Shown here piece after piece: positions 10,603 through 27,277 of a stretch of 64,000 bases of DNA. Made by a program: the position numbers and the translations under genes. Numbering within the stretch: position 1 is the stretch's first letter; every line of letters starts with the position of its first letter. Origin of the DNA: a virus; the IMG/VR virus record IMGVR_UViG_3300042013_000045, positions 32,001 to 96,000 of that record; one strand, given 5' to 3'. The notes beneath the pieces were generated by a model. It did no database searches. It saw only the letters and a program-made list of their open reading frames with translations, and was not told the DNA's origin.

Positions 10603-10610
10603 TAGTGCCA

Positions 10611-10649
10611 GGCTCACTGCATGTAACAGTGCAGTGAGTCTTTGTTTTT
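10611..10649 (+). terminator. Intrinsic terminator
   Basis: ggctcactgca/tgcagtgagtc stem followed by tttgttttt. Confidence 0.75.
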
Positions 10650-10678
10650 GACAGCTCAACCGACGATGGAGTCGTACA

Positions 10679-12127: not shown

Positions 12128-12171
12128 ATAGAGCCTCATTTTATAGTTAAGTCTATAGTGAGGAGTATCCC

Positions 12172-12681
12172 ATGTTACGCAAGTTGACCGATTTCCAGTT
12201 TATAGGTATCACCGAAGAGCGGTTGGCGGTTGACGCGCTGTTGGACAGTCTCTACCCGTACGATCAGGGTTTGATCAAGATCGTACGGGACGGGGGCATG
12301 CACGACGCATTCAGTATCATGGATGTGCTGGAACATGAAGACAAGCCGTTGAAGATCGAAGGGATTGAACGGTTGAACCGCATTCTGTATTCAGAGTGCC
12401 AACGACTGGGCGGCAACTTCGGTCACTACGGGCCTGTCACCTGTCATCTATTCAGGTCCCCTAAGGACTCCATCAGTTTCCCCATGCATGAGGATCTCGA
12501 CGATGTCGTGGTTCACATGGTCAAAGGGAAGAAGATCTTTGAATCTCCCTCAGGCGACCTCGAGTTACTTGAGGGGGAATCCATTTTTATCCCACGTGGC
12601 ACTAAGCACCGGGCGATCAACGTCGAAGCGTCAGTGATGTTGAGTTTTGGTATTGAGCGCTTCATCGTCGAGAAACTCTGA
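12172..12681 (+). CDS. Cupin/JmjC-like Fe(II)/2OG oxygenase
   Basis: FPMHEDLDD (HxD), MVKGKK, LLEGESIFIPRGTKHRA (distal His). Confidence 0.75.
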   Translation: MLRKLTDFQFIGITEERLAVDALLDSLYPYDQGLIKIVRDGGMHDAFSIMDVLEHEDKPLKIEGIERLNRILYSECQRLGGNFGHYGPVTCHLFRSPKDSISFPMHEDLDDVVVHMVKGKKIFESPSGDLELLEGESIFIPRGTKHRAINVEASVMLSFGIERFIVEKL

Positions 12682-13719
12682 ATGCAATCGAAAACGATCT
12701 ACGTCAAAACCACAGGTACATGCAACCTCAACTGCTCCCACTGCTTTACCAACGGGAAGTCTGGCGACAAGACCCAGTTCTGCCCCGATAGCGTGGGAGA
12801 CTGGGTTGCTGACTTTATGTCACGTTACCCGGAAGGTACGCACTACCACATGGAATTCCATGGTGGCGAGCCGTTCTTGGTTCCGGTTGCTAAGCTGAAG
12901 CAGTTTGCAGACAAGTTCCACGACAATGAAAACGTTTCCATGTGCGCCAACAGTAACCTGACGTTTAAAATTACAGATGAGCACATTAATTTCATTAAAA
13001 CATATTTTAACAGTTATATAGGCACAAGTTGGGATCATTGGATCAGATGGTCCAATCAGAAACAACTCGACCTGTGGAAGAGCAACCTCAAGTTGCTGGG
13101 TAGTCACGGGATTGGGATTGGTCTGAAGGTCTCGGTTAGCCGTGAACTGATTAAGATGTCAGCTGACTGGTTCATTGATCAGCTGGAAAGCTTCGGTGTA
13201 GAGGAAGCGTCCCTGGAGCGGTTGACCTTGGATGGCAGTGCTAACGAGAACCCAGACATCTTCCCCGATAACGAGGAACAGGATAACTGGTATCTGGCAG
13301 TGTATCAGCGCTACCACGAACGCCAGCCTACTGTCCGTATTCGCACCATGGACATCATCAAGGCAAAGCTCAAGCACAACATCGTCAAAGTCGACACCAG
13401 TTGCCGCAACTGCGAGCAGAACTTGGTGACGATCAACTCCAGCGGTACGTTGGGTGGCTGTCCCAACGTGGCTACACAGAAACACCACGCAAAACTCTCC
13501 GATGGCGTTACTGCTTTCCTTGAGTCAGACAGCCGCACGGATGACATCGTCAAGGAACTCTCCTTTGGCGAGACGTGCATGACCTGTGACGTGTTCGATC
13601 TGTGTGGTGGTGACTGTCACCGGTTGCCGTGGCAAGGTTCGCGCTGTGGGGGTTTGAAGAATACCTTGCGCTTCCTGTCCGGTCGTGTGCAGACCACCAA
13701 TCTAATTTTCAAGGGGTAG
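12682..13719 (+). CDS. Radical SAM/SPASM-domain protein
   Basis: CNLNCSHC, FHGGEP, C-terminal CRNC..GGCP..CMTCDVFDLCGGDC..C. Confidence 0.9.
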   Translation: MQSKTIYVKTTGTCNLNCSHCFTNGKSGDKTQFCPDSVGDWVADFMSRYPEGTHYHMEFHGGEPFLVPVAKLKQFADKFHDNENVSMCANSNLTFKITDEHINFIKTYFNSYIGTSWDHWIRWSNQKQLDLWKSNLKLLGSHGIGIGLKVSVSRELIKMSADWFIDQLESFGVEEASLERLTLDGSANENPDIFPDNEEQDNWYLAVYQRYHERQPTVRIRTMDIIKAKLKHNIVKVDTSCRNCEQNLVTINSSGTLGGCPNVATQKHHAKLSDGVTAFLESDSRTDDIVKELSFGETCMTCDVFDLCGGDCHRLPWQGSRCGGLKNTLRFLSGRVQTTNLIFKG

Positions 13720-13722
13720 AAC

Positions 13723-14259
13723 ATGGCTACTGATATTCTTCGGCAACATGTGGCGAACGTGGCGAACGCCTACGTCCGTAACAATGCCAACTCGGGCATC
13801 TCTTGGGGGACGAACAACTACCCAGGTGGTTCCCTAGGGTGGTTTGCTGGCGACACTAACGGTATCGCACAGGCGTTCGATGCTAACTGGATCGCTGGGG
13901 GTGATGCTTCGGCATCCAACGTCGCGGCGCACCTGCGTAACTTCGCGAACCTCTTCGGCGGTATCCGTCTTACACGCATCGTGATCTATTACCTGGACTA
14001 TCGTTACGGCACCACGGTGCAGTACGACGGTACAGCAATTGCCAACACGATCTACGGTGTGGGCGATTACGCTTCTGGTGCTGCGCTGCCTGGTTTGGCT
14101 GGCGGTGCTGACATGGACTTGAACAACCTGAACGCCTGTGGCAATAGCCTGTGGAACAGCTACTACGCTAACGCCCGGAACACAGTCCTTACTCTTACCA
14201 ACACTATCTGCCACACCAGCTGCCATGACAACTGTCACTGTGCACGCGGGCGTCGCTGA
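13723..14259 (+). CDS. Asn/Gly/Ala-rich protein with C-terminal Cys/His repeat; candidate substrate of the radical SAM cluster
   Basis: 178 aa ending ICHTSCHDNCHCARGRR; no Lys or Glu. Confidence 0.6.
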   Translation: MATDILRQHVANVANAYVRNNANSGISWGTNNYPGGSLGWFAGDTNGIAQAFDANWIAGGDASASNVAAHLRNFANLFGGIRLTRIVIYYLDYRYGTTVQYDGTAIANTIYGVGDYASGAALPGLAGGADMDLNNLNACGNSLWNSYYANARNTVLTLTNTICHTSCHDNCHCARGRR

Positions 14260-14271
14260 GGAGCCATTGTC

Positions 14272-15039
14272 GTGACAGACCTCGCCCCAAGCAATCCCAA
14301 TGAAGTGCTGGTAACCATCCCAATCCCTCCGGCCATCCTGCGTCGTAAGTTCACAGAACCGGACTTGCTGTTCGTCATTGATTACGACAACAGCAAGTTC
14401 AAAGGTAAGATGATGATCACTTACCTGTCCAACCTGAACATCAATTGCAAGTTGCAGCTGAATGACTCGGTGAATGCGTTGGAGCTGCTGTCGCAGTACT
14501 TGCGGATCACTACACTGGTCACCATTAGCGACATGGAACACCTGGCCATGCAGATGCTGTTGGCCTATTGCGGTAAACCTCACATGTTGGACTTCGACCC
14601 TGCGGAGTTCATTGCAGCGAACGATGACATCCTGACTGTGTGGAAACGTCGCTTGTTCCAACTGCCGTTGTTTGCCATGCACGTCCTGAAGAAGTTCGAG
14701 GATTACCTCGAGCAGTTCCCAGAAGACGATGATGACGGGATGTACGGTATCAACTACGTGCACTTGATCAAGCATGAAGACTTCGCCATCCTGATGCACG
14801 GTTACACCGATGACCTGCTGACCAAGAACACCACGCTCTTCAACGAGTACCTGTTCGCCGGCAAGAACTTGTTCCACTACTTCGCAGTTCAAAGCAATCC
14901 GCTCTTCATGGGCGTGTTGTCGTTGCAGGACGAAGCATCCTTCAACCTGATGAAGCCTGCGCTGGCAGAGGCTGCTAAGCAGTTGGAGCTGGTAGTGCCG
15001 ACGATCCAATTGAGGATTGCCAATGTACCATCTATTTGA
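14272..15039 (+). CDS. Hypothetical protein of the radical SAM cluster
   Basis: 255-aa ORF, GTG start after GAGGAG. Confidence 0.75.
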   Translation: MTDLAPSNPNEVLVTIPIPPAILRRKFTEPDLLFVIDYDNSKFKGKMMITYLSNLNINCKLQLNDSVNALELLSQYLRITTLVTISDMEHLAMQMLLAYCGKPHMLDFDPAEFIAANDDILTVWKRRLFQLPLFAMHVLKKFEDYLEQFPEDDDDGMYGINYVHLIKHEDFAILMHGYTDDLLTKNTTLFNEYLFAGKNLFHYFAVQSNPLFMGVLSLQDEASFNLMKPALAEAAKQLELVVPTIQLRIANVPSI

Positions 15040-16075
15040 TTCGGTCTACGTCGATACGCACTCGCGCATTGATCGTACACAGGACGTTATCACCATCGGC
15101 AATCAACTGGGTTACGAATACTTCCCAGATGAACGTGCGGTGGTCGGTAAGCAACTGGCTTTCGCTGAGAGCCTGGACGACGTGACCCCTGAAGCCTTCG
15201 TAGAAATGTTCACGTTGGCCAAAGCGTCGAAGAAGGCCACGGTCTTCTGTTGCGGTGGAACGTACCTGAGGCTGTACACGCTGTTGGTGAAAGCTCTGCT
15301 GCCTGCGGTGGATCTGGAAACCTTCAAGTGGATCATGCTCTGCAAGAAGGCCACGTTCAACACCACCTTGACCAACATCCGCAAACCTGTGGTTGATGTG
15401 ATCGGTTCGGTGACGATCACTGGCAAAGTCATTGAAGAGCTGTACGCCTTCGAAGACCCACTGCTGCCTGCAATGCAGGAAGTGATCCTTCAGGACAAGA
15501 CCACCCTGTCGCTCGAATGGCGCATCTTGCGCTTGAAGACTGACCAACGGGTCGGCATGCTGCCAAAGGTGCTCAAACGCATCCTGCACCGCATTGCATT
15601 GGCTAACACGCATGACGCCTTGGATGTCTGGGGTCGTGTACTTACCGAACCAGAGAACTGGGAATTCGGTGGCTGTGACTTCGACAGTCTGTTGAACGCT
15701 CCTACGGTGTTCGAAGGGTCGATGGCGTTGCAGTTCTCCAACAACCCAATGTTCCTTCAACCGAACCTGTTCGATCAAGAACCGTCGGATGACTGGATCA
15801 AAGGTTTGTTGTCTGAACTGATCCCAATGCTGGCTCACTGTGACGAAGGCCCAACGGCCGGGCGCACCAAGTTGATCCTCAAGCTGTTGCAAGAGCAGGT
15901 CAACCTGTACAACCCAGAAGTTTGTCTCGAACGCGTGATGACCATGTTCCACGGTCCAAAGCGTCTGGCACTTCCAAACCGAGATTCCGGCAAGTACGAC
16001 GAGAACTTGATCCGGTACATCCTACGAACTGACGTGGTTATTTTGAAGGCCTGCGTCGAAGGAGCTGAATGGTGA
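15023..16075 (+). CDS. Hypothetical protein of the radical SAM cluster
   Basis: 350-aa ORF; ATG at 15023 preceded by GAGGA; overlaps both neighbours. Confidence 0.75.
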   Translation: MYHLFDSVYVDTHSRIDRTQDVITIGNQLGYEYFPDERAVVGKQLAFAESLDDVTPEAFVEMFTLAKASKKATVFCCGGTYLRLYTLLVKALLPAVDLETFKWIMLCKKATFNTTLTNIRKPVVDVIGSVTITGKVIEELYAFEDPLLPAMQEVILQDKTTLSLEWRILRLKTDQRVGMLPKVLKRILHRIALANTHDALDVWGRVLTEPENWEFGGCDFDSLLNAPTVFEGSMALQFSNNPMFLQPNLFDQEPSDDWIKGLLSELIPMLAHCDEGPTAGRTKLILKLLQEQVNLYNPEVCLERVMTMFHGPKRLALPNRDSGKYDENLIRYILRTDVVILKACVEGAEW

Positions 16076-17070
16076 GTAATCTTATCCCACTCGTGGACAT
16101 CTTGCAGGATAAGAAGGGCAAGTACAAGGAAGCTCACTTGATCCTTTTTGAGCGCTGCAACATGCGCTGCTCGTTTTGCCACCAGGACCACGACTCGGAA
16201 GTCGGGATGAGTGGGGAAGATGTACTTGCTAAAGTGGACACGTTCATCATGAACTCCGATCCTAATGACGCCTATGTGGTGAACATTACGGGTGGTGAGT
16301 TGTTCATGGACGACGTCCCTGATGAACTGTTCGAATACTACTTCTTGGCCGGTAAGGCGATCCTGCAACGCTTCGAGGACGTCAAGCTGGTCTTTGGTAC
16401 GAACCTCGTTTATCAGAACACGGCCCGCGTTCGTCGTTTGATGCAGCGACTGCATCCATTCGGTCACGCCTGTCTGGCAACCTCGTACGATCCTGCTGGG
16501 CGGTTCAACGGGGAGCAGCGTAAGTTGTTCCTTGAGAACCTGATGGAGTTCGAGGCGATGATTGAGACTGTCAACGTGGTCATCACACGACAGAACATCG
16601 ACATCTTCTTGAAAGGCCAAGAGGGGCCTGAGTTCGACGTCATGGTCGCAGGCTTCGATGTCTACTTCGACCATTACATCCCGAGTACGCGTTACGAAGA
16701 GCATCAGCCTACAGAACACGCGATCAGCGAACTGTACCTGAGGCTCAATGAACGTTACCCCAACTCCTATCCGATCAAAGCATGGAAAGAGAACCAATTC
16801 AACGACACCACTTGCCGGTCTACCAAGATCATCAACAGCAATGGCATCGTGACCACGTGTTGGTCTGAAGCGGGGAAAGACTCTGTGCTGGATGAAGGAC
16901 AGGGCTTGGCGTTGAAACAAGCGGCCGAAGATCGGTTCCTTGAGAAGTACAACTGTCTGGCGTGTGAGTATTACCAGCGGTGCGGTTTGCGTTGCTTCTT
17001 GCATCACAGCTTTGTTGAAGACGGCTCAGACGAGTGTCAGATCAAAGTTATGTTCGACAAGGTATTGTGA
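16069..17070 (+). CDS. Radical SAM protein with SPASM-like C-terminus
   Basis: CNMRCSFC, TGGEL, C-terminal C..TTC..CLACEYYQRCGLRC..C. Confidence 0.88.
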   Translation: MVSNLIPLVDILQDKKGKYKEAHLILFERCNMRCSFCHQDHDSEVGMSGEDVLAKVDTFIMNSDPNDAYVVNITGGELFMDDVPDELFEYYFLAGKAILQRFEDVKLVFGTNLVYQNTARVRRLMQRLHPFGHACLATSYDPAGRFNGEQRKLFLENLMEFEAMIETVNVVITRQNIDIFLKGQEGPEFDVMVAGFDVYFDHYIPSTRYEEHQPTEHAISELYLRLNERYPNSYPIKAWKENQFNDTTCRSTKIINSNGIVTTCWSEAGKDSVLDEGQGLALKQAAEDRFLEKYNCLACEYYQRCGLRCFLHHSFVEDGSDECQIKVMFDKVL

Positions 17071-17077
17071 AGTGTCT

Positions 17078-17103
17078 AGGACTAGGGGATATCCCCTAGT
17101 CCT
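17078..17103. terminator. 26-bp perfect palindrome inside the cluster
   Basis: aggactaggggat|atcccctagtcct followed by ctttatct. Confidence 0.65.
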
Positions 17104-17129
17104 CTTTATCTATTACTTGAGTAACTGCC

Positions 17130-17327
17130 ATGAACCAATTCGAATTGTCTGCTGATGGATACGAATCTGCTGTAGCTTGGTTGAACGACAATGGTCATAG
17201 TGCGCACCTAGACTCCGACCGGGCTCCGATGGATGGTTACACGATCATCACCCTGGCCAACTCGCTGAAGAACAACGCGACTGTACAGACCCAGGCTTTC
17301 CTGCGTCCAGTTCTGCAAGCCTGCTAA
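17130..17327 (+). CDS. Small hypothetical protein
   Basis: 65-aa ORF filling the gap between the hairpin and the next rSAM gene. Confidence 0.55.
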   Translation: MNQFELSADGYESAVAWLNDNGHSAHLDSDRAPMDGYTIITLANSLKNNATVQTQAFLRPVLQAC

Positions 17328-17338
17328 GAGGCAACACC

Positions 17339-18433
17339 GTGAACCTGATTATCAAACCGACCGTAGCGTGTAACTTTAAGTGCACGTTCTGTTCCAGCAC
17401 TCATCTCTCTGAAGAACCCAAAGACATCGTTGAGTTGGAGGACATCGAAGCCTTCATCAAACGTTATCCTCACACCAGCACCATCATCGTCAACGGAGGC
17501 GATCCGCTGATGATGCCTCCGTCGTACTACTACTCGATCATGGAGATCTTGGACAAGTACGAGTGTCCTGCCATTCTGTCGTTCACCAGTAACCTCTGGG
17601 CGTTCTACAAGAAGCCTGAGATGTGGGCACCTCTGTTCAAGCTTGACCGAGTAGGGGTGACCACCTCGTTCCAATACGGCGACAAACGCCTGAAGGGTGA
17701 CGGGACTGTGTTCACGGAAGAAGAGTTCATTGCTGTCAGTGATCTGTTCTTGGAGCACGTGGGTTATCGTCCGGACTTCATTGCCGTGATCGACACCGAC
17801 AACGCTCACACCGTTCTCGACACTGTACGGCTTGCTCAGCGACTGGACGTCGAAGCCAAGGTCAACTACGTCTCAGCATCCGGGCCAGAGGTGACCAAGA
17901 AAGGCATCACGATGGGCAGCATCAATCACATGTATGCTCAAGCGGATATCTACGAGCAGTACTTGTCGATCTACGATGCCGGTCTCATGAAGTGGGAATA
18001 CAACACCAAGCAGATGGTCAAGCGCCTGAACCTAGGTACCACGACCTGTCCCTTGGCGCGTCACTGTGATGAAGGCATTCGTGCACTGCAACCGGGGAAG
18101 AACTATTACTCCTGTGGCAGCTTTGGAGATGACAACGAATACCCAATCGACTTCGGCAAGGAAATGGCGGGTGAGTTCTTCACTCCACTGCGCAATGAGG
18201 AAGCGCTGCATTCCATGAAGGAGTCGTGCAATGTCTGTCCTATGTTCTCAATCTGCAATGGCTGTCGTAAGACCATCGCTGATACCAAACGCCTAGGGCT
18301 GGTTGAGCATCACTGCAAGAAGATGAAGTCCCTTGCTCCACGTATCATCGACGCCAACGGCATGACCGGCATTCTCGAGCCGACGCCGTACGAAGATGAA
18401 TCCATCCAACTGATTCCACTCATCGCAATGTAA
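17339..18433 (+). CDS. Radical SAM/SPASM-like protein
   Basis: IIKPTVACNFKCTFC, NGGDPL, C-terminal CPLARHC..YSC..CNVCPMFSICNGC..C. Confidence 0.9.
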   Translation: MNLIIKPTVACNFKCTFCSSTHLSEEPKDIVELEDIEAFIKRYPHTSTIIVNGGDPLMMPPSYYYSIMEILDKYECPAILSFTSNLWAFYKKPEMWAPLFKLDRVGVTTSFQYGDKRLKGDGTVFTEEEFIAVSDLFLEHVGYRPDFIAVIDTDNAHTVLDTVRLAQRLDVEAKVNYVSASGPEVTKKGITMGSINHMYAQADIYEQYLSIYDAGLMKWEYNTKQMVKRLNLGTTTCPLARHCDEGIRALQPGKNYYSCGSFGDDNEYPIDFGKEMAGEFFTPLRNEEALHSMKESCNVCPMFSICNGCRKTIADTKRLGLVEHHCKKMKSLAPRIIDANGMTGILEPTPYEDESIQLIPLIAM

Positions 18434-18443
18434 AGAGAGCACC

Positions 18444-19370
18444 ATGAAGCCAGCAATCAATGTCTCCCTCAACGTTTCGTATTACTGTAACTTCCGGTGC
18501 TCTTTCTGTTACTTGACTGAAGAACAACTTGGTGACCGTACCAAGGTGAACCTCGAGCTGCTAGCTTCACGGATCGATGAGATCTTGGCATACTACACCA
18601 TCGAGCACGTAGACCTGTATGGCGGAGAAGTCCTGCTGTTACCCAAGGCGTATCTGCTCGGCATCAAAGAGATCCTCCATGCACGCGGTATCACCGACAT
18701 CGTGTTGATCACGAACCTCTCGCTCGTCAATGAGATCGCTAACGATCCAGACTTTGAGATCTCGGTCTCTTACGACTTCGGGGCGAGAGAGAAGGCAGAT
18801 GAAGTCCTCGGTAATATGTTCATGCTGGAGAATCGGTTCACTGTCTTGACGCTGGCCTCTCGTGCGTTCTTAGACACGGTATCGGTCGACGAGTACGTTG
18901 ACACCATGAACCTGTTAAACCGTCTCAAAACGGCTGAGATCAAGCCGTACAGCAGTAACCAAGCCAACGATCACGCAGTACAGTTTGATGAATTCGAAAA
19001 CTTCGTCTGGGCAGTGATAAACCACCCTAACCGCGAGTTCTATTTCGAGAACCGCAGTCAGGTGAAAGAAGCTGTAGAGACTGGCAACCGTAATGCCTTC
19101 AGTGACAACCACATCTACATCACTCCGACGGGCGACTTCGCCGTCCTTGAGTTCGATGGTAAGGATCGTGAGTTCTTCCTGAAGGTAGACGGGATGGCGG
19201 GCTACCGGGCGTGGTGTGATGCAGAGAAGAAGCGGGTCAATGCGAACCCGTACTGCCAAGCGTGCCCTTACAATGGCAAGTGTCTCTCTGAGCACTTAAG
19301 AGAAGTCGTGACCTTGGAACATTCCTGTAATGGGTTCAAAGGTCTACTAGACAGGTGGGCAGCACAATGA
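18444..19370 (+). CDS. Radical SAM protein
   Basis: CNFRCSFC, YGGEV, C-terminal CQACPYNGKC..HSC. Confidence 0.88.
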   Translation: MKPAINVSLNVSYYCNFRCSFCYLTEEQLGDRTKVNLELLASRIDEILAYYTIEHVDLYGGEVLLLPKAYLLGIKEILHARGITDIVLITNLSLVNEIANDPDFEISVSYDFGAREKADEVLGNMFMLENRFTVLTLASRAFLDTVSVDEYVDTMNLLNRLKTAEIKPYSSNQANDHAVQFDEFENFVWAVINHPNREFYFENRSQVKEAVETGNRNAFSDNHIYITPTGDFAVLEFDGKDREFFLKVDGMAGYRAWCDAEKKRVNANPYCQACPYNGKCLSEHLREVVTLEHSCNGFKGLLDRWAAQ

Positions 19371-20404
19371 TGGTACAACACCGGCAACGGTTGGAGATCA
19401 CCCTCGATATCTTCCGGGGGTGTAAGCACGCTTGTTCGGGGTGCATGATCGACAAGGCTATCGGCGGGGATGTGACTGACATTCCTGAACTGTTGGACTT
19501 GATCAAGGAGATGACGGCTGCGGGTTACGTGGCATTCGACTTAGGTGTGGGTCCGACGGACTACATGTCTTCAGACAACACCGCGGAAGTCATGACCAAC
19601 CCGGTCTTCAACGAGATGGCTCAACTGTTTCACCAGATAACGTTTAACGCAGCCTTTCTTGAGAAGGACTTGGAACAGTACGCTAGCATGTGTGCTGACA
19701 TCGATGAGGCAGCACCGGGTAAGGCCATTCGTTTCCTTATTCCTGCTGCCCCGACGTTCTTCAAGTCTGACAAGTTCGGCAACATGATCAAGATGAAGCT
19801 TGAGTTTATCAAGAACGCTATGAAGTCAGCGTACTTGAACGAAGCTGGCTTTGTGGTGAACTGCACTACGGAGACGGTTGGTGAGGATTTCGATGTCCGC
19901 ATGATGGATGGCTTTGAAGTAGAGTTCCCGGTGGACAAGGATGACATCCTAAACATCCCTTACGGGCGCTCTCCGAACAAAGACCTGATGCTGGCACAGA
20001 ACATCAAGCGGATCAGTCACCGCATCAGTGAGTTCTATGCCAAGTTGAACGGTATCGATGAACGTCGACGCAACCCCGACCTCCATTACGACACGGGGAC
20101 GATGGTCAACCTGCTGTACACCGGCGGTAAGTTGTATTGGGTGCCGTTCCTTAAGGATGACTGTCCGTTCATTGACGACGACTTTACGATCCCACGCCCC
20201 TGGACTATGGATAACCTGCTGGCAGTCCGTAGCAAGGCTCTGGAGAGTTCTCTGGAGTACTTGGAGGACACGCCGTGCATGAACTGCGTCTATGTCAGTA
20301 GTTGTGCTGAGAAAGGCATCACCAGCATCATGAAGAAGATGGCGATCAAAGATTGCCTAGTGGGGTTACAACATGCTTTCCCAACAGATCTCGATGTCGT
20401 TTAA
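19367..20404 (+). CDS. Divergent radical SAM-like protein
   Basis: GCKHACSGC, GPTD in place of GGEP, C-terminal CMNCVYVSSC..C; ATGA overlap. Confidence 0.7.
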   Translation: MMVQHRQRLEITLDIFRGCKHACSGCMIDKAIGGDVTDIPELLDLIKEMTAAGYVAFDLGVGPTDYMSSDNTAEVMTNPVFNEMAQLFHQITFNAAFLEKDLEQYASMCADIDEAAPGKAIRFLIPAAPTFFKSDKFGNMIKMKLEFIKNAMKSAYLNEAGFVVNCTTETVGEDFDVRMMDGFEVEFPVDKDDILNIPYGRSPNKDLMLAQNIKRISHRISEFYAKLNGIDERRRNPDLHYDTGTMVNLLYTGGKLYWVPFLKDDCPFIDDDFTIPRPWTMDNLLAVRSKALESSLEYLEDTPCMNCVYVSSCAEKGITSIMKKMAIKDCLVGLQHAFPTDLDVV

Positions 20405-21407
20405 CATCTCGCTCGAGGTATTGACGGGGTGTCGTTACAGTTGTGCGGGGTGTACGGTTGAGAAGAACTTTGCACCCTTGGATGTGTCCGAGAAAGACAC
20501 CGACGATCTAGTAGTTATGCTCGATGATCTGATTGCTGATGGGTATCGGTTGTTGGAGTTCCGAGTGGGGCCGACGGATATCATCTCTGCGGATAATGGG
20601 TTCCCTGCATTGAAGCATCGTTTGACGCGTGAGTTCGGCAAGCGCTACAAGGCGTTGAACTTGAACATGGCGATGCTTCACGATGAAGGCTTAGTAGAGC
20701 TGGCAGAGATCTTGGACGAAGTCATTCCTGGAAAGCTGCTCAGCGTTACTCTACCCATCACATTAAAAAATACACACAACGACAAGTACATTGGTGAATT
20801 GAAAAAAAGAGTGCTGTATTTTAAGGGACTGTTGAAGACTGTAAACTTCAACAGGATCTATCTCACTTTGAATGTGGGGGAAGAAAACCTAAAGCACTTG
20901 AGCACTGAGAGTTATGATCATGCCCATGAACTTGACTTAGGTGTCGATCTTGTAGTGGAGTTCCCGTTCGCTCATTCAAGGAAGGGGTTCGGTAACCTGC
21001 TGGTCGTGGATGAGTTCAAGGCTGATCTGGTAGAGTTCGTGGACTTCATGAAGACACGGGTTAACACAAGGGGCTTTCGTCCATTGCAACCTGCAATCTT
21101 AGAAGGTTTCGAATTCACCTATCGGGGAGGGCTTCTGTACTCTGTCCCCGTGGTCGTGGAGAGCCTTCCGATGTTCCATCCGATGTTTGTGGTGGATCGT
21201 CCGTGGACCGCCCAGAGCATCTACGCCTACAAGGAGCAACATTACTACAACAACCTCGAGACGTTCCTAGAACACCCCGAGTGTGGTGACTGCATGTTCC
21301 TAGACCATTGCGCACGTGGGGACGTCCATCGGATCATGAACTTGATCGGGACTGACAAGTGCCTGACTGATTCCAAGAATAGATGGGAATACTTCCACCC
21401 GGAGTAA
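20373..21407 (+). CDS. Divergent radical SAM-like protein, paralogue of 19367..20404
   Basis: GCRYSCAGC, GPTD, C-terminal CGDCMFLDHC..C. Confidence 0.7.
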   Translation: MLSQQISMSFNISLEVLTGCRYSCAGCTVEKNFAPLDVSEKDTDDLVVMLDDLIADGYRLLEFRVGPTDIISADNGFPALKHRLTREFGKRYKALNLNMAMLHDEGLVELAEILDEVIPGKLLSVTLPITLKNTHNDKYIGELKKRVLYFKGLLKTVNFNRIYLTLNVGEENLKHLSTESYDHAHELDLGVDLVVEFPFAHSRKGFGNLLVVDEFKADLVEFVDFMKTRVNTRGFRPLQPAILEGFEFTYRGGLLYSVPVVVESLPMFHPMFVVDRPWTAQSIYAYKEQHYYNNLETFLEHPECGDCMFLDHCARGDVHRIMNLIGTDKCLTDSKNRWEYFHPE

Positions 21408-21410
21408 ACT

Positions 21411-21848
21411 ATGCTCAATCCTGATGACATCATGATCACTGACGGCGTCGAGATTCCGCACTGGTTGTTAGATGAAGCAATGTGCTTGGAGAACCGTAAG
21501 TTCATTGAGGTCGAGAACATCGTCGACTTCACATGGAACTACCTCCGTGCTTACGCTCTCAAGCACCCTCTCGTGAATAAGCCGATCCGTCCGTGTGCCA
21601 GTCACATCAACATTGGCCATCATGGGGTGACACCTCACAACCACGAACCCCATGCGTTCACCTCCGTCCTGTACTTATTGGATGCTGAGGGTGAGCTGCG
21701 GTTCTGGGATAACGTTGATCTGTCCATCACACCCAAAGAGGGACGGTTCGTTATGTTCCCTGGTCACATCACCCATTACGTCGAAGCATCCAAGCAAGCC
21801 GAACTTCGCATCTCGCTGGTAACCAACTATGAATACTACCCGACATGA
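21411..21848 (+). CDS. Fe(II)/2OG oxygenase-like protein (HxH...H type)
   Basis: PHNH..FTSVLYL, PKEGRFVMFPGHITHYV, RISL. Confidence 0.75.
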   Translation: MLNPDDIMITDGVEIPHWLLDEAMCLENRKFIEVENIVDFTWNYLRAYALKHPLVNKPIRPCASHINIGHHGVTPHNHEPHAFTSVLYLLDAEGELRFWDNVDLSITPKEGRFVMFPGHITHYVEASKQAELRISLVTNYEYYPT

Positions 21849-22275
21849 GTACAAGGATTACCAGGAGCTGTACCAACTCCTGGTGACCGACCATCCTGAT
21901 GCGTTTGCCAACATGGAGATCGTTGAAGAAGAAGAACTCGTGCACAACGCACTGAAGTACTTCGACCATGCGACCTTCCCTTTGATTTACCCGGCCAAGA
22001 GTTATGCCGTGGCGATCATCTACGCTTACAAGATCAAAGAGGTCTACGGTGTTCCTGTTCTTACTACCCTGGATGACCCGGATCTGTTCCTTGGTCAAGA
22101 CCCTTACTTCGTACCGTACTCAGCGGACAAGGCGACGTATACGGACATTATCGCTCATCTCCAGGATCGACCAAACTTCCTCAATGAAGGATGGGCACCC
22201 CAAACCGTGAAGTACTTCTACGCCGAGTGTACGGCTGAAGGGATTGAAAAGTTGCAAGAGGAGTTCTGCAAATGA
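21829..22275 (+). CDS. Hypothetical protein of the radical SAM cluster
   Basis: 148-aa Tyr-rich acidic ORF overlapping both neighbours. Confidence 0.7.
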   Translation: MNTTRHEYKDYQELYQLLVTDHPDAFANMEIVEEEELVHNALKYFDHATFPLIYPAKSYAVAIIYAYKIKEVYGVPVLTTLDDPDLFLGQDPYFVPYSADKATYTDIIAHLQDRPNFLNEGWAPQTVKYFYAECTAEGIEKLQEEFCK

Positions 22276-22838
22276 ACATCATCCAGCCATGGAAGATCGA
22301 GATCGGTCATGTCAACGTCAATGGCACCCCTTGGGACATGACTGAATTCGCCACAGAAGTGTTCAACCTGAACCTGATGACCGGTGGGCAACAAGAGACC
22401 CAGGTCAGCTTGGGTTCTGGCCTCTGTCCCATCATTCTGGAGATGCGTGACACTCTCATTACGCCGCTGGTCAAAGAGTTCGCACGGAATCAGCTTGGGT
22501 ACATCCTGCGAGACGGTGAGTTCGAAGTCGAGACCAACGCCAAGTGGATTCCCAAAGGCGAAGGTCTCTATCCTCACCAGCACTCCAGTTCGATCCTGTC
22601 GGTCATTGTCTACCCACAGGACTCCAAGTCTGGGTTGAACTTCTTTGACCCTCGCACGAATGCTGGTCGTGGGTTTCCTCGTGAGATCCGTGATGAACAC
22701 TTTGCCCGTTATGCCATCTCGCCTAAAGCCGGCGATGTGTTCATCTTCCCCAGTTACCTTCAGCACAGCGTTTCGTATGTAGAAGAAGACATCCGTCTCT
22801 CGCTGTTGCATGAATACTATCCACATTCCACTCGCTGA
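22272..22838 (+). CDS. Fe(II)/2OG oxygenase-like protein (TIGR02466-like)
   Basis: PHQH..LSVIVYP, FFDPR, PKAGDVFIFPSYLQHSV, RLS. Confidence 0.8.
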   Translation: MNIIQPWKIEIGHVNVNGTPWDMTEFATEVFNLNLMTGGQQETQVSLGSGLCPIILEMRDTLITPLVKEFARNQLGYILRDGEFEVETNAKWIPKGEGLYPHQHSSSILSVIVYPQDSKSGLNFFDPRTNAGRGFPREIRDEHFARYAISPKAGDVFIFPSYLQHSVSYVEEDIRLSLLHEYYPHSTR

Positions 22839-22846
22839 GAGCTCTC

Positions 22847-23395
22847 ATGGAAATCATACAACCTTGGCAAGTCAAGATTGCCCGTGTCAACATCGCTGAG
22901 TTTGTAGACCTCGAAGGTCTGGCTGGCGAGATCCATCAACTGCACTGCCTGTCCCCTCGGGAGTCTGCGACGCCGTACCCAGTCACACCCGCTGAGTTCC
23001 CGCTGATCTGCGCGGCACGTGACGGTATCATCACTGACAAGGTCAGCGAATACATCGAAGAAGCCTTCGGTGTAAGTCCTCTGGGGATGGTGATCGACAC
23101 CTTTGGCAAGTGGTTCGGTAAAGGGGAAGAGCTGGGTTCTCACCTGCACGGCAACTCCAATGTGACCAGTGTGTTCTATCCGTACGAATACAGCACGGGC
23201 ATGATGCTGATGGACCCTCGCTTCAACGCACAGCGCGGTTACTCGCGTCGTGTCCGTGATACCCACTTCGGGGATTACAATGCACGGCCTAAAGCTGGCG
23301 ATCTCTGGATCGTACCGAGCTACGTGCAGCACAGCATCCCTACGGTGAAGGACGATCTGCGTATCTCCCTCATCAACGACTTCCACTTCATTTAA
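22847..23395 (+). CDS. Fe(II)/2OG oxygenase-like protein, tandem paralogue
   Basis: SHLH..TSVFYP, LMDPR, PKAGDLWIVPSYVQHSI, RIS; N-terminus IIQPW shared with the previous gene. Confidence 0.8.
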   Translation: MEIIQPWQVKIARVNIAEFVDLEGLAGEIHQLHCLSPRESATPYPVTPAEFPLICAARDGIITDKVSEYIEEAFGVSPLGMVIDTFGKWFGKGEELGSHLHGNSNVTSVFYPYEYSTGMMLMDPRFNAQRGYSRRVRDTHFGDYNARPKAGDLWIVPSYVQHSIPTVKDDLRISLINDFHFI

Positions 23396-23404
23396 GGAAC
23401 GACC

Positions 23405-24052
23405 ATGTCTGAAGCAGATGAGCTTTACACTGGCGTTGACCGTGGCGAGTTCCTGATCTCCCGTCTTGCCACCGCTGACGGTGTGTTCACGGAAGTCAAT
23501 GCCCGCATCAAGAAGGTCTCGGTCTTCAACTACGGCAGTCAGTATGCGTACGCGCTACTCGGCTACCAGATCGAGTACTGGCTCAAGGATGAGAAGGCTC
23601 CGTACGACGGTGGCACTCCACGACTGTACCGTCCAGCAGGCCGTCCTGATTACACCACGTTGTACATGCGCATCAAGGTCAGCTCGACTGTCAAGATGCT
23701 GTACCTCGAAGACGCGATCATCAACGACTTCATCACCTCGAAGGCTCAGTTGAACTCGTTGTTCCTCGAGAGTTACGACGAAGCGGCTGCACAGCAAATC
23801 ACCAGCATGGGTATCTATCGCCGGGTGAAGGCTACTGACGTGGAATACAAGAACTGTTTCCACACCACACGCTATGAGTCTTCCACAACGGCACCCCTGA
23901 CGCTCACTGAGCAATGGATGTCGTACGTGGGCCGTGTCTATCTGACCGAAGGCGATGAACAGGTGCGTTACATCCGTGACAAGCCGTTCGTGAGCCTCAA
24001 GGACATGATCGACTCTTTGGTTGCTGACTTCACGGCATCCATCCCTACCTAA
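23405..24052 (+). CDS. Hypothetical protein
   Basis: 215-aa ORF with AAGGA RBS. Confidence 0.7.
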   Translation: MSEADELYTGVDRGEFLISRLATADGVFTEVNARIKKVSVFNYGSQYAYALLGYQIEYWLKDEKAPYDGGTPRLYRPAGRPDYTTLYMRIKVSSTVKMLYLEDAIINDFITSKAQLNSLFLESYDEAAAQQITSMGIYRRVKATDVEYKNCFHTTRYESSTTAPLTLTEQWMSYVGRVYLTEGDEQVRYIRDKPFVSLKDMIDSLVADFTASIPT

Positions 24053-24063: not shown

Positions 24064-24825
24064 ATGGCCGTCGATTTGAAACAACTGCAAGCCGACCTGA
24101 AGAACGTGGGTCTCTTGCCTGCTGAACCGGATGGCAAGTGGGGTCCAAAGTCCCACGGTGCGTTCCTTAAGGCTCGTGCTCTGGTGGCACGCTCCGATGT
24201 GTCGGTCGCCAAGATGTCCGCTCAACTGGTCAGTCTCTGTAAAGCCCCTGCATGGTCGGCTAAGCAGACTCCTCAGTTCGTCTCCCGCGTCAAAGAGATC
24301 GTAGCAGCTCTTGGGATGCCGTCTACGGGCGTTGATGACCTCATGGCATGCATCGCATGGGAATCGGGTGAGTCCTTCTCTGCGGGCATCGTGAACAAGG
24401 CTGGGTCTGGTGCTACTGGTCTGATTCAGTTCATGCCAGGCACTGCGATCGTCTACTTCAACTCGGCTGCTGAGATTGCCAAGATGTCGGAGATCCAGAA
24501 GAAGGAAGCAGGTCTGAAAGCCTGCCGTACTCTGGCCGCCATGTCCGACGTGCAGCAACTGGACTACGTCCTCAAGTACTTCCAACCGTACAAAGGCAGG
24601 TTGAAGAATCTCGGGGATTTATACATGAGCATTTTATGGCCGCTGGGTATCGGCAAAGACGACAGCTACGTGTTGTGGACTGCCGAAGGTCGTCCGACCA
24701 CGTTCCGTCAGAACTCCGGTCTCGATGTGAACAAGGATGGCGCGATTACTCGTGCTGAGTGTCTGGTCAAGGTCAATGACAAGTTGACCAAAGGTCTGCA
24801 CCCTGACTACCTGCGTGCTGCATAA
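24064..24825 (+). CDS. Endolysin: peptidoglycan-binding-like N-terminus plus lysozyme/transglycosylase-like domain
   Basis: LQ..L...G....DG.WGP.S at the N-terminus; IAWESG catalytic Glu and GATGLIQFMPGTA; AGGAGG RBS. Confidence 0.8.
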   Translation: MAVDLKQLQADLKNVGLLPAEPDGKWGPKSHGAFLKARALVARSDVSVAKMSAQLVSLCKAPAWSAKQTPQFVSRVKEIVAALGMPSTGVDDLMACIAWESGESFSAGIVNKAGSGATGLIQFMPGTAIVYFNSAAEIAKMSEIQKKEAGLKACRTLAAMSDVQQLDYVLKYFQPYKGRLKNLGDLYMSILWPLGIGKDDSYVLWTAEGRPTTFRQNSGLDVNKDGAITRAECLVKVNDKLTKGLHPDYLRAA

Positions 24826-24881
24826 AGAAAAAAGAAAGAAGGCTACACCCACCAGCCATTGCGGCTGGTGGGTGTATGCCG
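24824..24881. terminator. Bidirectional hairpin
   Basis: tacacccaccagcc/ggctggtgggtgta stem; A-rich left flank gives a minus-strand U-tract; TATGCCG right flank. Confidence 0.75.
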
Positions 24882-26021: not shown

Positions 26022-26294
26022 TTAGGGGTAAGTCACTTGTTGCAGGAAGTCAGGGGAACCGTCAGTCATACGGTACACACGGGCTTTGAAGCAGGTTTCT
26101 TGTTGCAGCGAATCAGTGAACTGATCGTACATCCAGAGATCGTATTCAGTTGCACTGTTGAAGTAGATGACAGCAGGCTCTATGACCCACTCACCATCCA
26201 AGGCATAGCTGTAGTACATAACTCTGTACAGTGCTTCCTTCGGCCACAAAGCGTTATCCTTGCGGATTGCTTCAAGGCAGTTGTGGTGAGTCAT
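26022..26294 (-). CDS. Small hypothetical protein
   Basis: Start moved to MTHHNC (GGAG RBS), which removes the overlap with the upstream ORF. Confidence 0.55.
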   Translation of the reverse strand: MTHHNCLEAIRKDNALWPKEALYRVMYYSYALDGEWVIEPAVIYFNSATEYDLWMYDQFTDSLQQETCFKARVYRMTDGSPDFLQQVTYP

Positions 26295-26304
26295 GACGGC
26301 TCCG

Positions 26305-26535
26305 TTAACTGCGTCTGGGTAAAGGGTTTTTCGACCGGTACTGTAATTGCTGGTCATGACGCCACAGACGAGCCGCTTCCGGATCAGTAGGGGTGTTATC
26401 CAGCTTTACGCGTTTGTCGCGCAGATCAGTTAGTACAGCAATGAGCGCGGTAAGATCAGCCGCATCCATGCCTTTGTACTTCTCACCGCACACGCAAACA
26501 GCGTCGTGACAGTTAGGACAATAGGTGTAAGACAT
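26305..26535 (-). CDS. Small Cys-cluster (CPNC..CVC) protein
   Basis: 76 aa, GGAGG RBS. Confidence 0.6.
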   Translation of the reverse strand: MSYTYCPNCHDAVCVCGEKYKGMDAADLTALIAVLTDLRDKRVKLDNTPTDPEAARLWRHDQQLQYRSKNPLPRRS

Positions 26536-26550
26536 CTAGCCTCCGTGTAT

Positions 26551-26820: not shown

Positions 26821-26863
26821 GCTAGTCTCCTGAAGACTAAGGTTATTAGTTGTACTCACCGCA

Positions 26864-26895
26864 GTAATGTATTGCTGAAATAAAGTCGATTCAAA
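26864..26895 (-). promoter_or_regulatory. Candidate early (virion RNAP) promoter
   Basis: Minus strand tttgaatcgactttatttcagcaatacattac; near-copy at 51471..51502. Confidence 0.6.
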
Positions 26896-26944
26896 GAAAG
26901 AAAAAGAAACCATGTCCAGAGCCGAAGCCCCAGACATGTTTACG

Positions 26945-27214: not shown

Positions 27215-27257
27215 GGATGTTCCCCTTGGGTTGATAGCTCAGGTTATACCACATCTA

Positions 27258-27273: not shown

Positions 27274-27277
27274 CTTA

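What the first reader, a model, noticed from the sequence alone, without database searches (positions are those of the whole stretch)
12172..24052. Phage-encoded radical SAM / Fe-2OG oxygenase cluster: candidate RiPP-like maturation system for a virion protein
Seen in sequence: 16 co-oriented, mostly overlapping or abutting ORFs between a tail-fibre gene and the endolysin. They comprise six CxxxCxxC proteins (12682, 16069, 17339, 18444, 19367, 20373), all with extra C-terminal Cys clusters; four cupin/2OG-oxygenase proteins (12172, 21411, 22272, 22847); five unknowns; and one 178-aa protein with a Cys/His repeat tail. Established knowledge: rSAM-SPASM enzymes typically act on peptides or proteins (sactipeptides, ranthipeptides, His-Xaa-Ser and triceptide cyclophanes, anSME), and JmjC/2OG enzymes hydroxylate protein side chains. 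From memory, the equivalent fibre and endolysin genes are adjacent in phiKZ, so this would be an inserted module. Inference: ten metalloenzymes dedicated to post-translationally building a modified structure on the 178-aa protein or the fibre. No transporter, peptidase or immunity gene is evident, which argues against a secreted bacteriocin and for a modified virion component, for example a metal-chelating or crosslinked receptor-binding tip. I know of no characterised system like this.
Basis: partly seen in the sequence, partly recalled or inferred. Interest (0 to 1): 0.95.

Follow-up and report, generated by a model that had tools for sequence, protein, structure and literature searches.

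The report
Radical-SAM cassette maturing a phage virion protein
Between its tail-fibre genes and its lysin, this jumbo phage carries an undescribed, widely conserved set of radical-SAM and iron-oxygenase enzymes around one small protein with an invariant Cys-His-x-Ser x3-RGRR end; the enzymes probably modify that end chemically before the protein joins the virus particle.

Summary
All 16 co-oriented ORFs exist at 12172-24052, between a phiKZ-gp135-like fibre gene and a transglycosylase. Four of the six CxxxCxxC proteins are HMM-supported radical SAM enzymes with SPASM-like Cys clusters. Two (19355, 20373) are too divergent to confirm. Four are cupin or 2OG oxygenases.

The key feature is the 178-aa protein. 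Its last 16 residues, (C-H-x-S/N)x3-R-G-R-R, lie at the extreme C-terminus in 507 protein clusters and are almost invariant, on bodies of about 130 to 533 aa. In 47 of 47 related loci with full flanks it travels with four rSAM enzymes and the 255-aa unknown. The cupin is present in 45 and the 148-aa unknown in 44. The other genes are lineage-specific accessories. A reverse scan anchored on one enzyme found no cassette without the tail gene.

In 39 of 47 loci a fibre gene lies directly upstream. The Agrobacterium phage Atu_ph07 counterpart (gp170) was detected in published virion proteomics. The enzymes were not.

No paper found describes the cassette. The nearest characterised analogue is the bacterial HXS antiphage system, but family thresholds are not met. 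The chemistry and role remain inferred.

Earlier agents of this scan reached the same reading on at least ten other genomes. One related claim was marked 'part of it fell'.

The parts
8227..10602 (+). 791-aa fibre-like virion protein, paralogue of the next gene (context)
   Evidence: 36.7% identity to the 482-aa protein with repeated units. Syntenic in DT01 and 22 viral contigs.
10679..12127 (+). 482-aa tail-fibre or virion structural protein, homologue of phiKZ gp135
   Evidence: phrog_2163 at 3.6e-130 plus many tail-fibre PHROGs. tblastn to PHIKZ135 at 2.7e-32. 290 phage records matched. No terminator-like hairpin before the cupin gene.
12172..12681 (+). 169-aa cupin/JmjC-like Fe(II) oxygenase (near-universal core, 45 of 47 loci)
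   Evidence: JmjC_2 at 23.1 bits (cut-off 22), weak Cupin_2. HxD...H seen in the sequence. Census.
12682..13719 (+). rSAM 1, 345 aa, full SPASM-type Cys pattern. Directly upstream of the tail gene in most loci, elsewhere in the cassette in a few rearranged ones (core, 47 of 47)
   Evidence: CX3CX2C at residues 14-21 and Cx2Cx5Cx3C. Weak full-length hits to PapB, anSME, DarE, DynA and cyclophane maturases. Family profile hits 8VPO, anSME 4K37, CteB and ChlB.
13723..14259 (+). 178-aa folded protein, the candidate substrate. The invariant tail C-H-T-S-C-H-D-N-C-H-C-A-R-G-R-R is encoded at 14209-14256.
   Evidence: Alignments A1-A3. 507 clusters with the tail at the extreme C-terminus. AF2 model pLDDT 86.8 with no fold match. 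Atu_ph07 gp170 found in virion MS.
14272..15039 (+). 255-aa unknown, core partner (47 of 47), directly after the tail gene in most loci
   Evidence: phrog_20767 at 3.9e-41. AF2 model pLDDT 90.7 with no fold match, best Z 4.0. No PDB sequence hit.
15017..16075 (+). 352-aa unknown (34 of 47 loci)
   Evidence: No Pfam, NCBIfam or PHROG hit. Census.
16069..17070 (+). rSAM 2, 333 aa, SPASM-type Cys pattern (core, 47 of 47)
   Evidence: Radical_SAM at 24.9 bits, below cut-off. Weak PapB, HxsC and SPASM hits. Motifs.
17078..17103 (+). 11-bp-stem hairpin between rSAM 2 and the 65-aa ORF. Possible internal terminator or processing site.
   Evidence: Terminator-like scan. Pattern match only.
17130..17327 (+). 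65-aa ORF, clade-specific (7 of 47)
   Evidence: Homologues at 33-74% identity in close relatives only.
17339..18433 (+). rSAM 3, 364 aa, the most conserved enzyme (50-77% identity across the family; core, 47 of 47)
   Evidence: Radical_SAM at 43.5 bits. Family profile aligns over the full length of anSME 4K36 (2-332 to 5-354, E 7.7e-6). 364 viral contigs encode a relative.
18444..19370 (+). rSAM 4, 308 aa, one C-terminal auxiliary Cys cluster (core, 47 of 47)
   Evidence: Radical_SAM at 39.6 bits. Motifs. Census.
19355..20404 (+). 349-aa divergent CX3CX2C protein, accessory (24 of 47), paralogue of the next gene
   Evidence: 24% identity to 20373, E 6e-32. No Pfam or NCBIfam hit. Profile comparisons inconclusive.
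20373..21407 (+). 344-aa divergent CX3CX2C protein, accessory (30 of 47)
   Evidence: As for 19355. phrog_31457.
21411..21848 (+). 145-aa 2OG-Fe(II) oxygenase, accessory (16 of 47)
   Evidence: 2OG-FeII_Oxy_5 at 30.1 bits and Oxy_3 at 29.4 bits. Weak FlmC hit.
21829..22275 (+). 148-aa unknown, near-universal core (44 of 47)
   Evidence: phrog_20737 at 1.1e-38. 16 invariant residues in alignment A5. No family, PDB or atlas match.
22272..22838 (+). 188-aa 2OG-Fe(II) oxygenase (this type in 37 of 47 loci)
   Evidence: 2OG-FeII_Oxy_5 at 44.5 bits. TIGR02466 weak.
22847..23395 (+). 182-aa 2OG-Fe(II) oxygenase, recent paralogue of 22272 (11 of 47)
   Evidence: 36% identity, E 1e-41. Pfam 30.2 bits.
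23405..24052 (+). 215-aa unknown, clade-specific (9 of 47)
   Evidence: No family hit.
24064..24825 (+). 253-aa transglycosylase/endolysin-like protein (downstream boundary)
   Evidence: tblastn to 242 phage records annotated as endolysin or transglycosylase. Strong hairpin at 24844-24876.

Best explanation
This is a conserved, phage-borne protein-maturation cassette.

Shown:
- A small folded protein ends in an almost invariant (Cys-His-x-Ser/Asn)x3-Arg-Gly-Arg-Arg tail.
- Its gene is always accompanied by four minimal rSAM enzymes (about 310-365 aa, no recognisable RRE, anSME-like layout) and a 255-aa protein of unknown fold. A JmjC-like cupin and a 148-aa protein are nearly always present too.
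- The tail-bearing protein of a distant member, Atu_ph07 gp170, is found in phage-particle preparations. The enzymes are not.
- The cassette usually sits directly behind a fibre gene.

Inferred:
- The rSAM enzymes act one after another on each C-H-x-S unit of the tail. They would abstract hydrogen atoms to form crosslinks or oxidised residues. Candidates are Cys thioethers of the sacti/ranthipeptide type, His-to-Ser cyclophanes as in His-Xaa-Ser systems, or anSME-like Cys oxidation.
- The cupin and the variable 2OG oxygenases then add hydroxylations.
- The finished protein is built into the virion, most likely at or near the fibre or baseplate.

The extra paralogues in this window (19355/20373, 21411, 22847) are lineage-specific tailoring enzymes. 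The exact chemistry and the role in infection are unknown.
For: 1. Tail invariance. C, H and R positions are identical in 24 full-length homologues and in 50 tails from diverse loci. A tail profile finds 507 clusters at 50% identity, always at the extreme C-terminus, on bodies of about 130 to 533 aa.
2. Obligate linkage. In 47 of 47 full-flank loci the tail gene co-occurs with rSAM 1-4 and the 255-aa protein. The cupin is in 45 and the 148-aa protein in 44.
3. Reverse test. Loci anchored on rSAM 3 (364 viral contigs, 80 examined) carry the tail or a close variant wherever the flank suffices. The one apparent exception has the tail gene about 1 kb outside the fetched stretch.
4. Enzyme number does not follow repeat number. 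Loci with 2, 3, 4 or 13 tetrads carry similar sets of enzyme families, as expected for enzymes working unit by unit.
5. Enzyme type. rSAM 1 and rSAM 3 profiles best match protein- and peptide-modifying SPASM enzymes: anSME over its full length, CteB and ChlB.
6. Virion evidence. Atu_ph07 gp170 has 8 unique peptides and 35% coverage. The neighbouring enzymes gp165, gp168, gp169, gp171 and gp172 are not listed. Identity was confirmed by the calculated mass of 31.89 kDa.
7. Fibre linkage. 39 of 47 loci have a co-oriented fibre gene ending within 2.6 kb upstream, and the fibres are of three unrelated types. Here no terminator-like hairpin separates the fibre gene from the cupin gene.
8. Precedent. 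rSAM maturation of an HxS-repeat protein effector has been shown experimentally (PMC13128918).
Against: - No modification has been observed on any member. Substrate status rests on gene linkage and conservation.
- The Atu_ph07 particles were only PEG-purified, and the list includes obvious non-structural proteins such as RecA-like, SSB and RNR. Virion membership is therefore probable, not proven.
- RSF1 ORF071 is not annotated as structural.
- All NCBIfam and PDB similarities are far below family cut-offs.
- Two of the six 'rSAM' proteins here cannot be confirmed as such.
- Nine of 47 loci lack a recognised fibre gene by the sequence census. One of these, L067, has fibre-like ORFs by Pfam.
- O2-requiring oxygenases sit beside O2-sensitive rSAM enzymes, which is unexplained.
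- An invariant Cys/His motif could equally be a metal site.
- An earlier check of the same claim on other DNA was marked 'part of it fell', with no detail given.
Confidence: 0.6

Rival explanations
1. The Cys/His tail is a metal- or Fe-S-binding site rather than a substrate. For example, it could be a trimer-interface metal site like the His-bound iron ions in the T4 gp37 fibre tip (recalled from memory, not checked here). The enzymes would then modify something else, such as the neighbouring fibre protein.
For: Three Cys and three His at a 4-residue period are modelled as a strand end plus a short helix, which would place like residues on one face. A fibre gene lies upstream in most loci. The family's bodies are Cys-poor, so the tail holds nearly all the thiols.
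Against: This does not explain why the tail, and not any fibre type, is the constant partner of the enzymes. The upstream fibres belong to three unrelated types, and 8 of 47 loci show none. Variants with 13 tetrads, or with His replaced by Asn in one unit, fit a repeat substrate better than a fixed metal site. The two readings are not exclusive: modification could create the metal site.
Confidence: 0.15
2. The protein is a scaffold for a small product, as PqqA is for PQQ or MftA for mycofactocin. The modified C-terminal residues would be cut off and act as a cofactor, metallophore or toxin during infection.
For: The core motif is invariant and sits at the C-terminus, as in cofactor precursors. 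There are several SPASM enzymes plus oxygenases.
Against: No peptidase, transporter or RRE was recognised in the cassette. The body is a confidently folded domain, varies greatly and is found in particles. The system is essentially confined to phages.
Confidence: 0.08
3. The enzymes modify DNA, nucleotides, RNA or another small molecule, and their linkage with the tailed protein is incidental or regulatory.
For: Some SPASM or twitch enzymes act on non-peptide substrates; there are weak NirJ, AhbC/D, MoaA and QueE hits. In RSF1, DHFR genes lie inside the block. The DT01 authors suggested DNA repair or metabolism.
Against: The DHFR and HNH genes are a lineage-specific insertion, absent here and in DT01. 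No nucleotide-handling domain occurs in the core. The 47-of-47 linkage with the tail gene and the fibre context point to a protein target.
Confidence: 0.05
4. The matured HxS-like, basic tail works on DNA passage. By analogy with, or as a counter to, the bacterial HXS defence, it would sit in the tail or ejection machinery and bind or escort DNA, rather than serve in receptor binding.
For: Matured HxsA binds DNA through basic HxS repeats and blocks phage DNA entry. The tail here is His-rich and ends in RGRR. HXS is common in Pseudomonadota, the hosts of the cultured carriers.
Against: The enzymes and substrate fail every HXS family threshold. The gene context is fibre genes, not tape-measure or ejection proteins. 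There are no data on DNA binding.
Confidence: 0.07

Closest known systems
HXS antiphage system (HxsA/B/C/D; TIGR03976-03979; Li et al., Nat Commun 2026, PMC13128918)
   Same: Both have a protein-sized substrate with short His-x-Ser repeats rich in basic residues, matured by two or more rSAM enzymes with a small helper protein. A covalent modification was mapped to an S-H-R-S-S unit in HxsA.
   Different: [quoted passage not shown] Here the system is phage-encoded, has tetrads with an invariant Cys, sits at the extreme C-terminus with an RGRR end, and has four core rSAM enzymes plus a cupin. The HxsB and HxsC models score 18-31 bits against cut-offs of 268-370, and there is no HxsA or HxsD match.
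Anaerobic sulfatase-maturating enzyme (anSME; TIGR03942; PDB 4K36-4K39) acting on sulfatases
   Same: It is a minimal rSAM/SPASM enzyme of about 370 aa without an RRE that modifies a Cys or Ser in a short motif of a whole protein. The rSAM 3 profile aligns over the full length of anSME. The last tetrad plus Arg (C-H-x-S-R) loosely recalls C-x-P/A-x-R.
   Different: Scores are 37-42 bits against a cut-off of 349. The target is not a sulfatase. There are four different enzymes and a repeated motif, and no evidence of formylglycine.
rSAM RiPP maturases forming thioethers or cyclophanes (CteB, PapB, triceptide 3-CyFE enzymes YhhB/AmcB/FxsB, DarE/DynA)
   Same: These are the best NCBIfam and PDB similarities of rSAM 1. 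They process short repeated motifs containing Cys or aromatic residues one after another. Clusters with co-occurring 2OG oxygenases are known (weak FlmC/FlmE hits).
   Different: Here there is no leader peptide or RRE, no protease or exporter, a folded substrate of about 130-533 aa, and an invariant rather than diversifying core. The system is in phages and the product stays on a particle protein. All scores are far below the family cut-offs.
QhpD/QhpC (quinohemoprotein amine dehydrogenase gamma-subunit maturation)
   Same: An rSAM/SPASM enzyme installs several intraprotein Cys thioether crosslinks in a small structural subunit that stays part of the final assembly. This comparison comes from my own knowledge and was not tested here.
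   Different: That system uses a single enzyme and a bacterial periplasmic enzyme subunit, with no Cys-His tetrads. No sequence comparison was made here.

Membership tests
Radical SAM superfamily (PF04055) | CX3CX2C cluster motif near the N-terminus | tested here: met
   Present in all six proteins by direct reading. It is invariant in family alignments A6, A7 and A8.
Radical SAM superfamily (PF04055) | Pfam score above the gathering cut-off of 29.5 bits | tested here: inconclusive
   Met for 17339 (43.5) and 18444 (39.6). Below cut-off for 12682 (23.7) and 16069 (24.9). No hit for 19355 or 20373. For that pair, profile comparisons match only the cluster motif.
SPASM domain (TIGR04085) | Seven-Cys pattern CX9-15GX4C ... 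CX2CX5CX3C ... C, and model score of at least 27 bits | tested here: inconclusive
   The pattern is seen in 12682 and 16069. 17339 has CX2CX5CX2C. Model scores are 24.5, 16.8 and 17.0 bits, all below cut-off. 18444, 19355 and 20373 have only CX2CX5C plus one Cys.
Anaerobic sulfatase maturase (TIGR03942) | Equivalog score of at least 349 bits; sulfatase substrate with C/S-x-P/A-x-R | tested here: not met
   42.0 bits for 12682 and 36.7 bits for 17339. There is no sulfatase gene in the cassette.
HXS / His-Xaa-Ser system | HxsB (TIGR03978, cut-off 370) and HxsC (TIGR03977, cut-off 267.9) maturases | tested here: not met
   Best scores are 30.7 bits (HxsB model, 12682) and 19.5 and 18.2 bits (HxsC model, 16069 and 17339).
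HXS / His-Xaa-Ser system | HxsA repeat protein and HxsD helper | tested here: not met
   There is no NCBIfam hit for the 178-, 255-, 148-, 352- or 215-aa proteins at E <= 0.01 to 1. The tail does contain H-x-S/N units, but at a 4-residue period with Cys.
Triceptide / 3-residue cyclophane maturases (YhhB NF041707, AmcB NF041718, FxsB TIGR04269) | Family score above cut-offs of 370-445 bits | tested here: not met
   43-50 bits for 12682. These are its best hits but lie far below threshold.
RiPP biosynthetic cluster (general definition) | Leader-dependent recognition (RRE/PqqD-like domain), leader protease, export | tested here: inconclusive
   No PqqD/RRE, peptidase or transporter family was found in any of the 16 ORFs. 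Five ORFs remain of unknown fold or function, so absence is not shown.
2OG-Fe(II) oxygenase, PF13759 (2OG-FeII_Oxy_5) | Pfam score of at least 27 bits | tested here: met
   21411 scores 30.1, 22272 scores 44.5 and 22847 scores 30.2 bits.
JmjC/cupin oxygenase (PF08007 JmjC_2) | Pfam score of at least 22 bits; HxD/E...H iron triad | tested here: met
   23.1 bits, a marginal pass. H-E-D and a distal His are seen in the sequence.

The most novel reading that the evidence does not exclude
Phages use a battery of radical-SAM and iron oxygenase enzymes to turn each Cys-His-x-Ser unit at the end of a fibre- or baseplate-associated particle protein into a new kind of crosslinked, possibly metal-binding or chemically reactive group. 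That group would be needed for adsorption or genome delivery. This would be the first enzyme-built prosthetic structure on a virion, and a new class of rSAM protein chemistry.
Probability: 0.3. Interest if true: 0.9.

Novelty: new variant of a known kind. Interest (0 to 1): 0.8.

Why it matters
Chemical modification of phage particle proteins by dedicated radical enzymes has not been described. Yet this cassette occurs in hundreds of uncultured large phages and in cultured jumbo phages of Pseudomonas, Ralstonia, Burkholderia, Agrobacterium and Sinorhizobium.

The substrate motif is short, invariant and C-terminal, and several carriers are culturable. The chemistry is therefore directly testable by co-expression and mass spectrometry. 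It could reveal new rSAM reactions on Cys, His and Ser.

If the modified tail acts in adsorption or DNA delivery, it bears on the host range and stability of phages considered for biocontrol and therapy. It would also give a phage-side counterpart to the recently described HXS defence.

Tried and rejected
- Fold searches for the 178-aa protein gave nothing meaningful: Foldseek PDB, best E 0.41; VIA wide, best Z 4.9; ESM Atlas, TM by query at most 0.32.
- Fold searches for the 255-aa protein were also empty: Foldseek, best E 0.31; VIA, best Z 4.0, N-terminal 64 residues only.
- Protein-atlas look-ups of the 255- and 148-aa proteins gave no usable hit.
- A PDB profile search of the 148-aa family returned only spurious pentatricopeptide-repeat rows with no passing stretch.
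- A complex prediction of the 255-aa protein with the 178-aa protein gave no verdict (score 0.00). It says nothing either way.
- The idea that the window is Ralstonia phage RP31 or RP12 was rejected. RP31 has homologous fibres but a different, non-homologous rSAM cluster (ORF72-76) and no CH-tetrad tail in the fetched 49 kb. Its virion protein ORF78 lies on the other strand.
- The idea that the 19355/20373 pair could be confirmed as rSAM by profile methods failed.
- Occurrence in cellular genomes: only 5 true loci among 185,579 species genomes, all MAG or short contigs. Three are binned as Bdellovibrio. Whether these are chromosomal or phage DNA was not settled.
- Literature searches for any description of the cassette found only gene lists.

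Full report
**1. What is in the window**

The window lies in a 172.8-kb viral record estimated 65% complete. Between 12172 and 24052 there are 16 co-oriented, abutting or overlapping ORFs on the + strand.

- Upstream are two paralogous fibre-like genes, 8227-10602 and 10679-12127. The second matches PHROG tail and virion families and phiKZ gp135 at E 2.7e-32.
- Downstream is a transglycosylase/endolysin-like gene, 24064-24825.
- No terminator-like hairpin separates the fibre gene from the first cassette gene. Strong + strand hairpins lie at 10610-10641 and at 17078-17103 (after rSAM 2). Another lies at 24844-24876, after the lysin.

**2. The enzymes**

- All six proposed rSAM proteins carry CX3CX2C near the N-terminus and Cys clusters near the C-terminus.
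- Pfam Radical_SAM passes its cut-off for 17339 and 18444. It is just below for 12682 and 16069.
- NCBIfam gives these four dozens of weak hits to SPASM peptide and protein maturases, all 5-10 times below the family cut-offs. The hits include anSME, PapB, DarE/DynA, cyclophane formers and HxsB/HxsC.
- A family profile of 17339 aligns along the whole of anSME (PDB 4K36, E 7.7e-6). The 12682 profile hits 8VPO, anSME, CteB and ChlB.
- The paralogous pair 19355/20373 (24% identity) has no family hit. Profile comparisons match only the cluster motif, so their rSAM nature is unproven.
- 12172 is a marginal JmjC_2 cupin. 21411, 22272 and 22847 are PF13759 2OG oxygenases, and the last two are recent paralogues.
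- No RRE, peptidase or transporter was recognised.

**3. The 178-aa protein**

- It ends in C-H-T-S-C-H-D-N-C-H-C-A-R-G-R-R.
- The C, H, R, G, R and R positions are invariant in 24 homologues. They also hold in RSF1 ORF071 and Atu_ph07 gp170, apart from Ser for Gly in gp170's R-S-R-R end.
- A profile of the last 40 residues, searched against 1.84 billion representative proteins, found 507 clusters. In every listed hit the motif ends at the last residue.
- The consensus is V-C-H-[SA]-S-C-H-[SN]-[SN]-C-H-[GS]-S-R-G-R-R. The bodies range from about 130 to 533 aa.
- Variants include one with 13 tetrads and ones with 2 or 4 tetrads or with one His replaced by Asn. Some loci carry two tandem tail genes. 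One body contains a Pfam Gly_rich_2 domain.
- The body folds confidently in AF2 (pLDDT 86.8) but matches no known fold.
- The body here has no Lys or Glu. The family is Lys-poor, with a mean of 2.0%.

**4. Conservation of the cassette**

- The whole block is syntenic in Pseudomonas phage pPa_SNUABM_DT01.
- Reduced or rearranged forms occur in Ralstonia RSF1/RSL2-like and Burkholderia FLC6/S13-like phages, in Agrobacterium Atu_ph07 and in Sinorhizobium Phosso.
- In 47 loci with enough flank, family HMMs gave these counts:

| Component | Loci (of 47) |
|---|---|
| rSAM 1, 2, 3, 4 and the 255-aa protein | 47 |
| cupin (12172 type) | 45 |
| 148-aa protein | 44 |
| 2OG oxygenase of the 22272 type | 37 |
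| 352-aa protein | 34 |
| 20373 type | 30 |
| 19355 type | 24 |
| 21411 type | 16 |
| 22847 type | 11 |
| 215-aa protein | 9 |
| 65-aa ORF | 7 |

- The loci are related to one another, so these are not independent counts. They do span identities down to about 25-30%.
- Other lineages add a B12-binding rSAM or many 19355-like paralogues.
- The reverse test asked whether enzyme sets occur without the tail gene. 364 viral contigs encode a relative of 17339. Among the 80 fetched, every locus with enough flank has the tail or a close variant. The remaining cases are rearranged loci where the tail block lies beyond the fetched end. One apparent exception has the gene about 1 kb outside the locus.
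- Among 185,579 prokaryotic species genomes only five true loci were found. All are MAG or short contigs with the full cassette. The system is therefore essentially phage-borne.

**5. Link to the virion and to fibres**

- In the published ESI-MS/MS list of Atu_ph07 particle proteins (PMC6102473, Table S5), gp170 has 8 unique peptides and 35.16% coverage. It was seen in gel bands 1-9 and was most abundant in band 1.
- I confirmed that gp170 is the tail-bearing protein: 296 aa, with a calculated mass of 31.89 kDa that matches the table.
- The adjacent enzymes gp165, gp168, gp169, gp171 and gp172 are absent from the list.
- Two caveats apply. The particles were only PEG-purified, and the list contains some non-structural proteins. 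The loading buffer as described names no reductant, so the high apparent mass could be a disulfide or an aggregate.
- In 38 of 47 full loci a co-oriented fibre gene ends within 2.6 kb upstream:
  - 23 are of the phiKZ-gp135 type.
  - 15 share a C-terminal domain (...ARYADLAEKY...) that matches phrog_22593 and phrog_19602 and weakly matches the Peptidase_G2 autochaperone. Atu_ph07 gp176, also a particle protein, is one of these.
  - A Bdellovibrio-binned locus has three Peptidase_S74 fibre-like ORFs upstream, which brings the total to 39 of 47.
- The remaining eight loci show no recognised fibre directly upstream.

**6. Comparison with phiKZ**

In phiKZ the gp131-135 fibre array is followed by eight small genes and then the gp144 endolysin, with no cassette. 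Serratia phage PCH45 has small unknown genes in that slot. RP31 has a different rSAM cluster there. The cassette therefore occupies a variable slot; it is not an insertion between two adjacent genes.

**7. Interpretation**

The most economical reading is that the tail is the substrate of the core rSAM enzymes. Four points support it:
- The motif is invariant, Cys/His-rich and C-terminal.
- It is obligately linked to anSME-like minimal SPASM enzymes.
- Enzyme number is independent of repeat number.
- The experimentally studied HXS system provides a precedent. There HxsB and HxsC mature an HxS-repeat protein and a +8 Da change maps to S-H-R-S-S (PMC13128918).

Invariance of the core argues for one conserved product, a prosthetic or structural group, rather than a diversifying antimicrobial peptide.

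The particular reaction (thioether, His-Ser cyclophane or Cys oxidation), the roles of the 255- and 148-aa proteins, and the function in the particle are inferences. Possible functions include fibre attachment, metal binding and DNA handling.

None of the family thresholds for anSME, HXS, triceptide or ranthipeptide maturases is met. This is an analogue of those systems, not a member of any of them.

**8. Status in the literature and in this scan**

Papers on DT01, FLC6, S13 and RP12/RP31 only list these genes. Targeted searches found no functional description.

Earlier agents of this scan reported the same cassette on at least ten other genomes, with the same reading. One related claim was marked 'part of it fell' without detail. 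These notes gave me the HXS reference. They are not independent evidence.

Noticed in passing
L062 (Ralstonia phage RP31, AP017925) 26100-36743: RP31 has homologues of both fibre genes, followed at the same genomic slot by a different rSAM cluster (ORF72-76). There is no CH-tetrad tail. The small ORF070 ends in ...SHTHYSPDGSY and might be an alternative substrate.
   Followed up: partly
L022 9995-10678 (also P0062): This is a tail-protein variant with 13 C-H-x-S/N tetrads separated by NV(P)V linkers. Its cassette has the same enzyme set as the 3-tetrad loci.
   Followed up: partly
L063 / L064: A variant cassette adds a 521-aa B12-binding rSAM and extra 2OG oxygenases. Its 453-aa tail protein has an N-terminal Pfam Gly_rich_2 domain. 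No fibre gene lies upstream.
   Followed up: no
L030 4850-6427 and L053: A tryptophan-halogenase-like gene (phrog_2928, E 1.7e-144) and three 2OG oxygenase genes lie directly upstream of the cassette, where a fibre gene would otherwise be.
   Followed up: no
window 17078-17103, 10610-10641, 24844-24876: These are strong hairpins. One splits the cassette after rSAM 2, one lies between the two fibre paralogues, and one lies after the lysin gene. They may be transcript ends or processing sites.
   Followed up: no
window 13723-14259: The 178-aa protein has no Lys and no Glu. Across 169 family members Lys averages 2.0% and is absent in 17, while Asn and Gly are each about 9%.
   Followed up: partly
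L067 4427-8169 (MAG binned as Bdellovibrio): Three tandem ORFs with Peptidase_S74 intramolecular-chaperone domains precede a full cassette on a 110-kb contig. It was not settled whether this is bacterial fibre machinery or a binned phage.
   Followed up: partly
window 8146-10770, 10694-12139, 13834-15009, 15835-17007 (- strand): Long antisense ORFs of 390-874 aa shadow the + strand genes. They have no homology support and look like composition artefacts.
   Followed up: no
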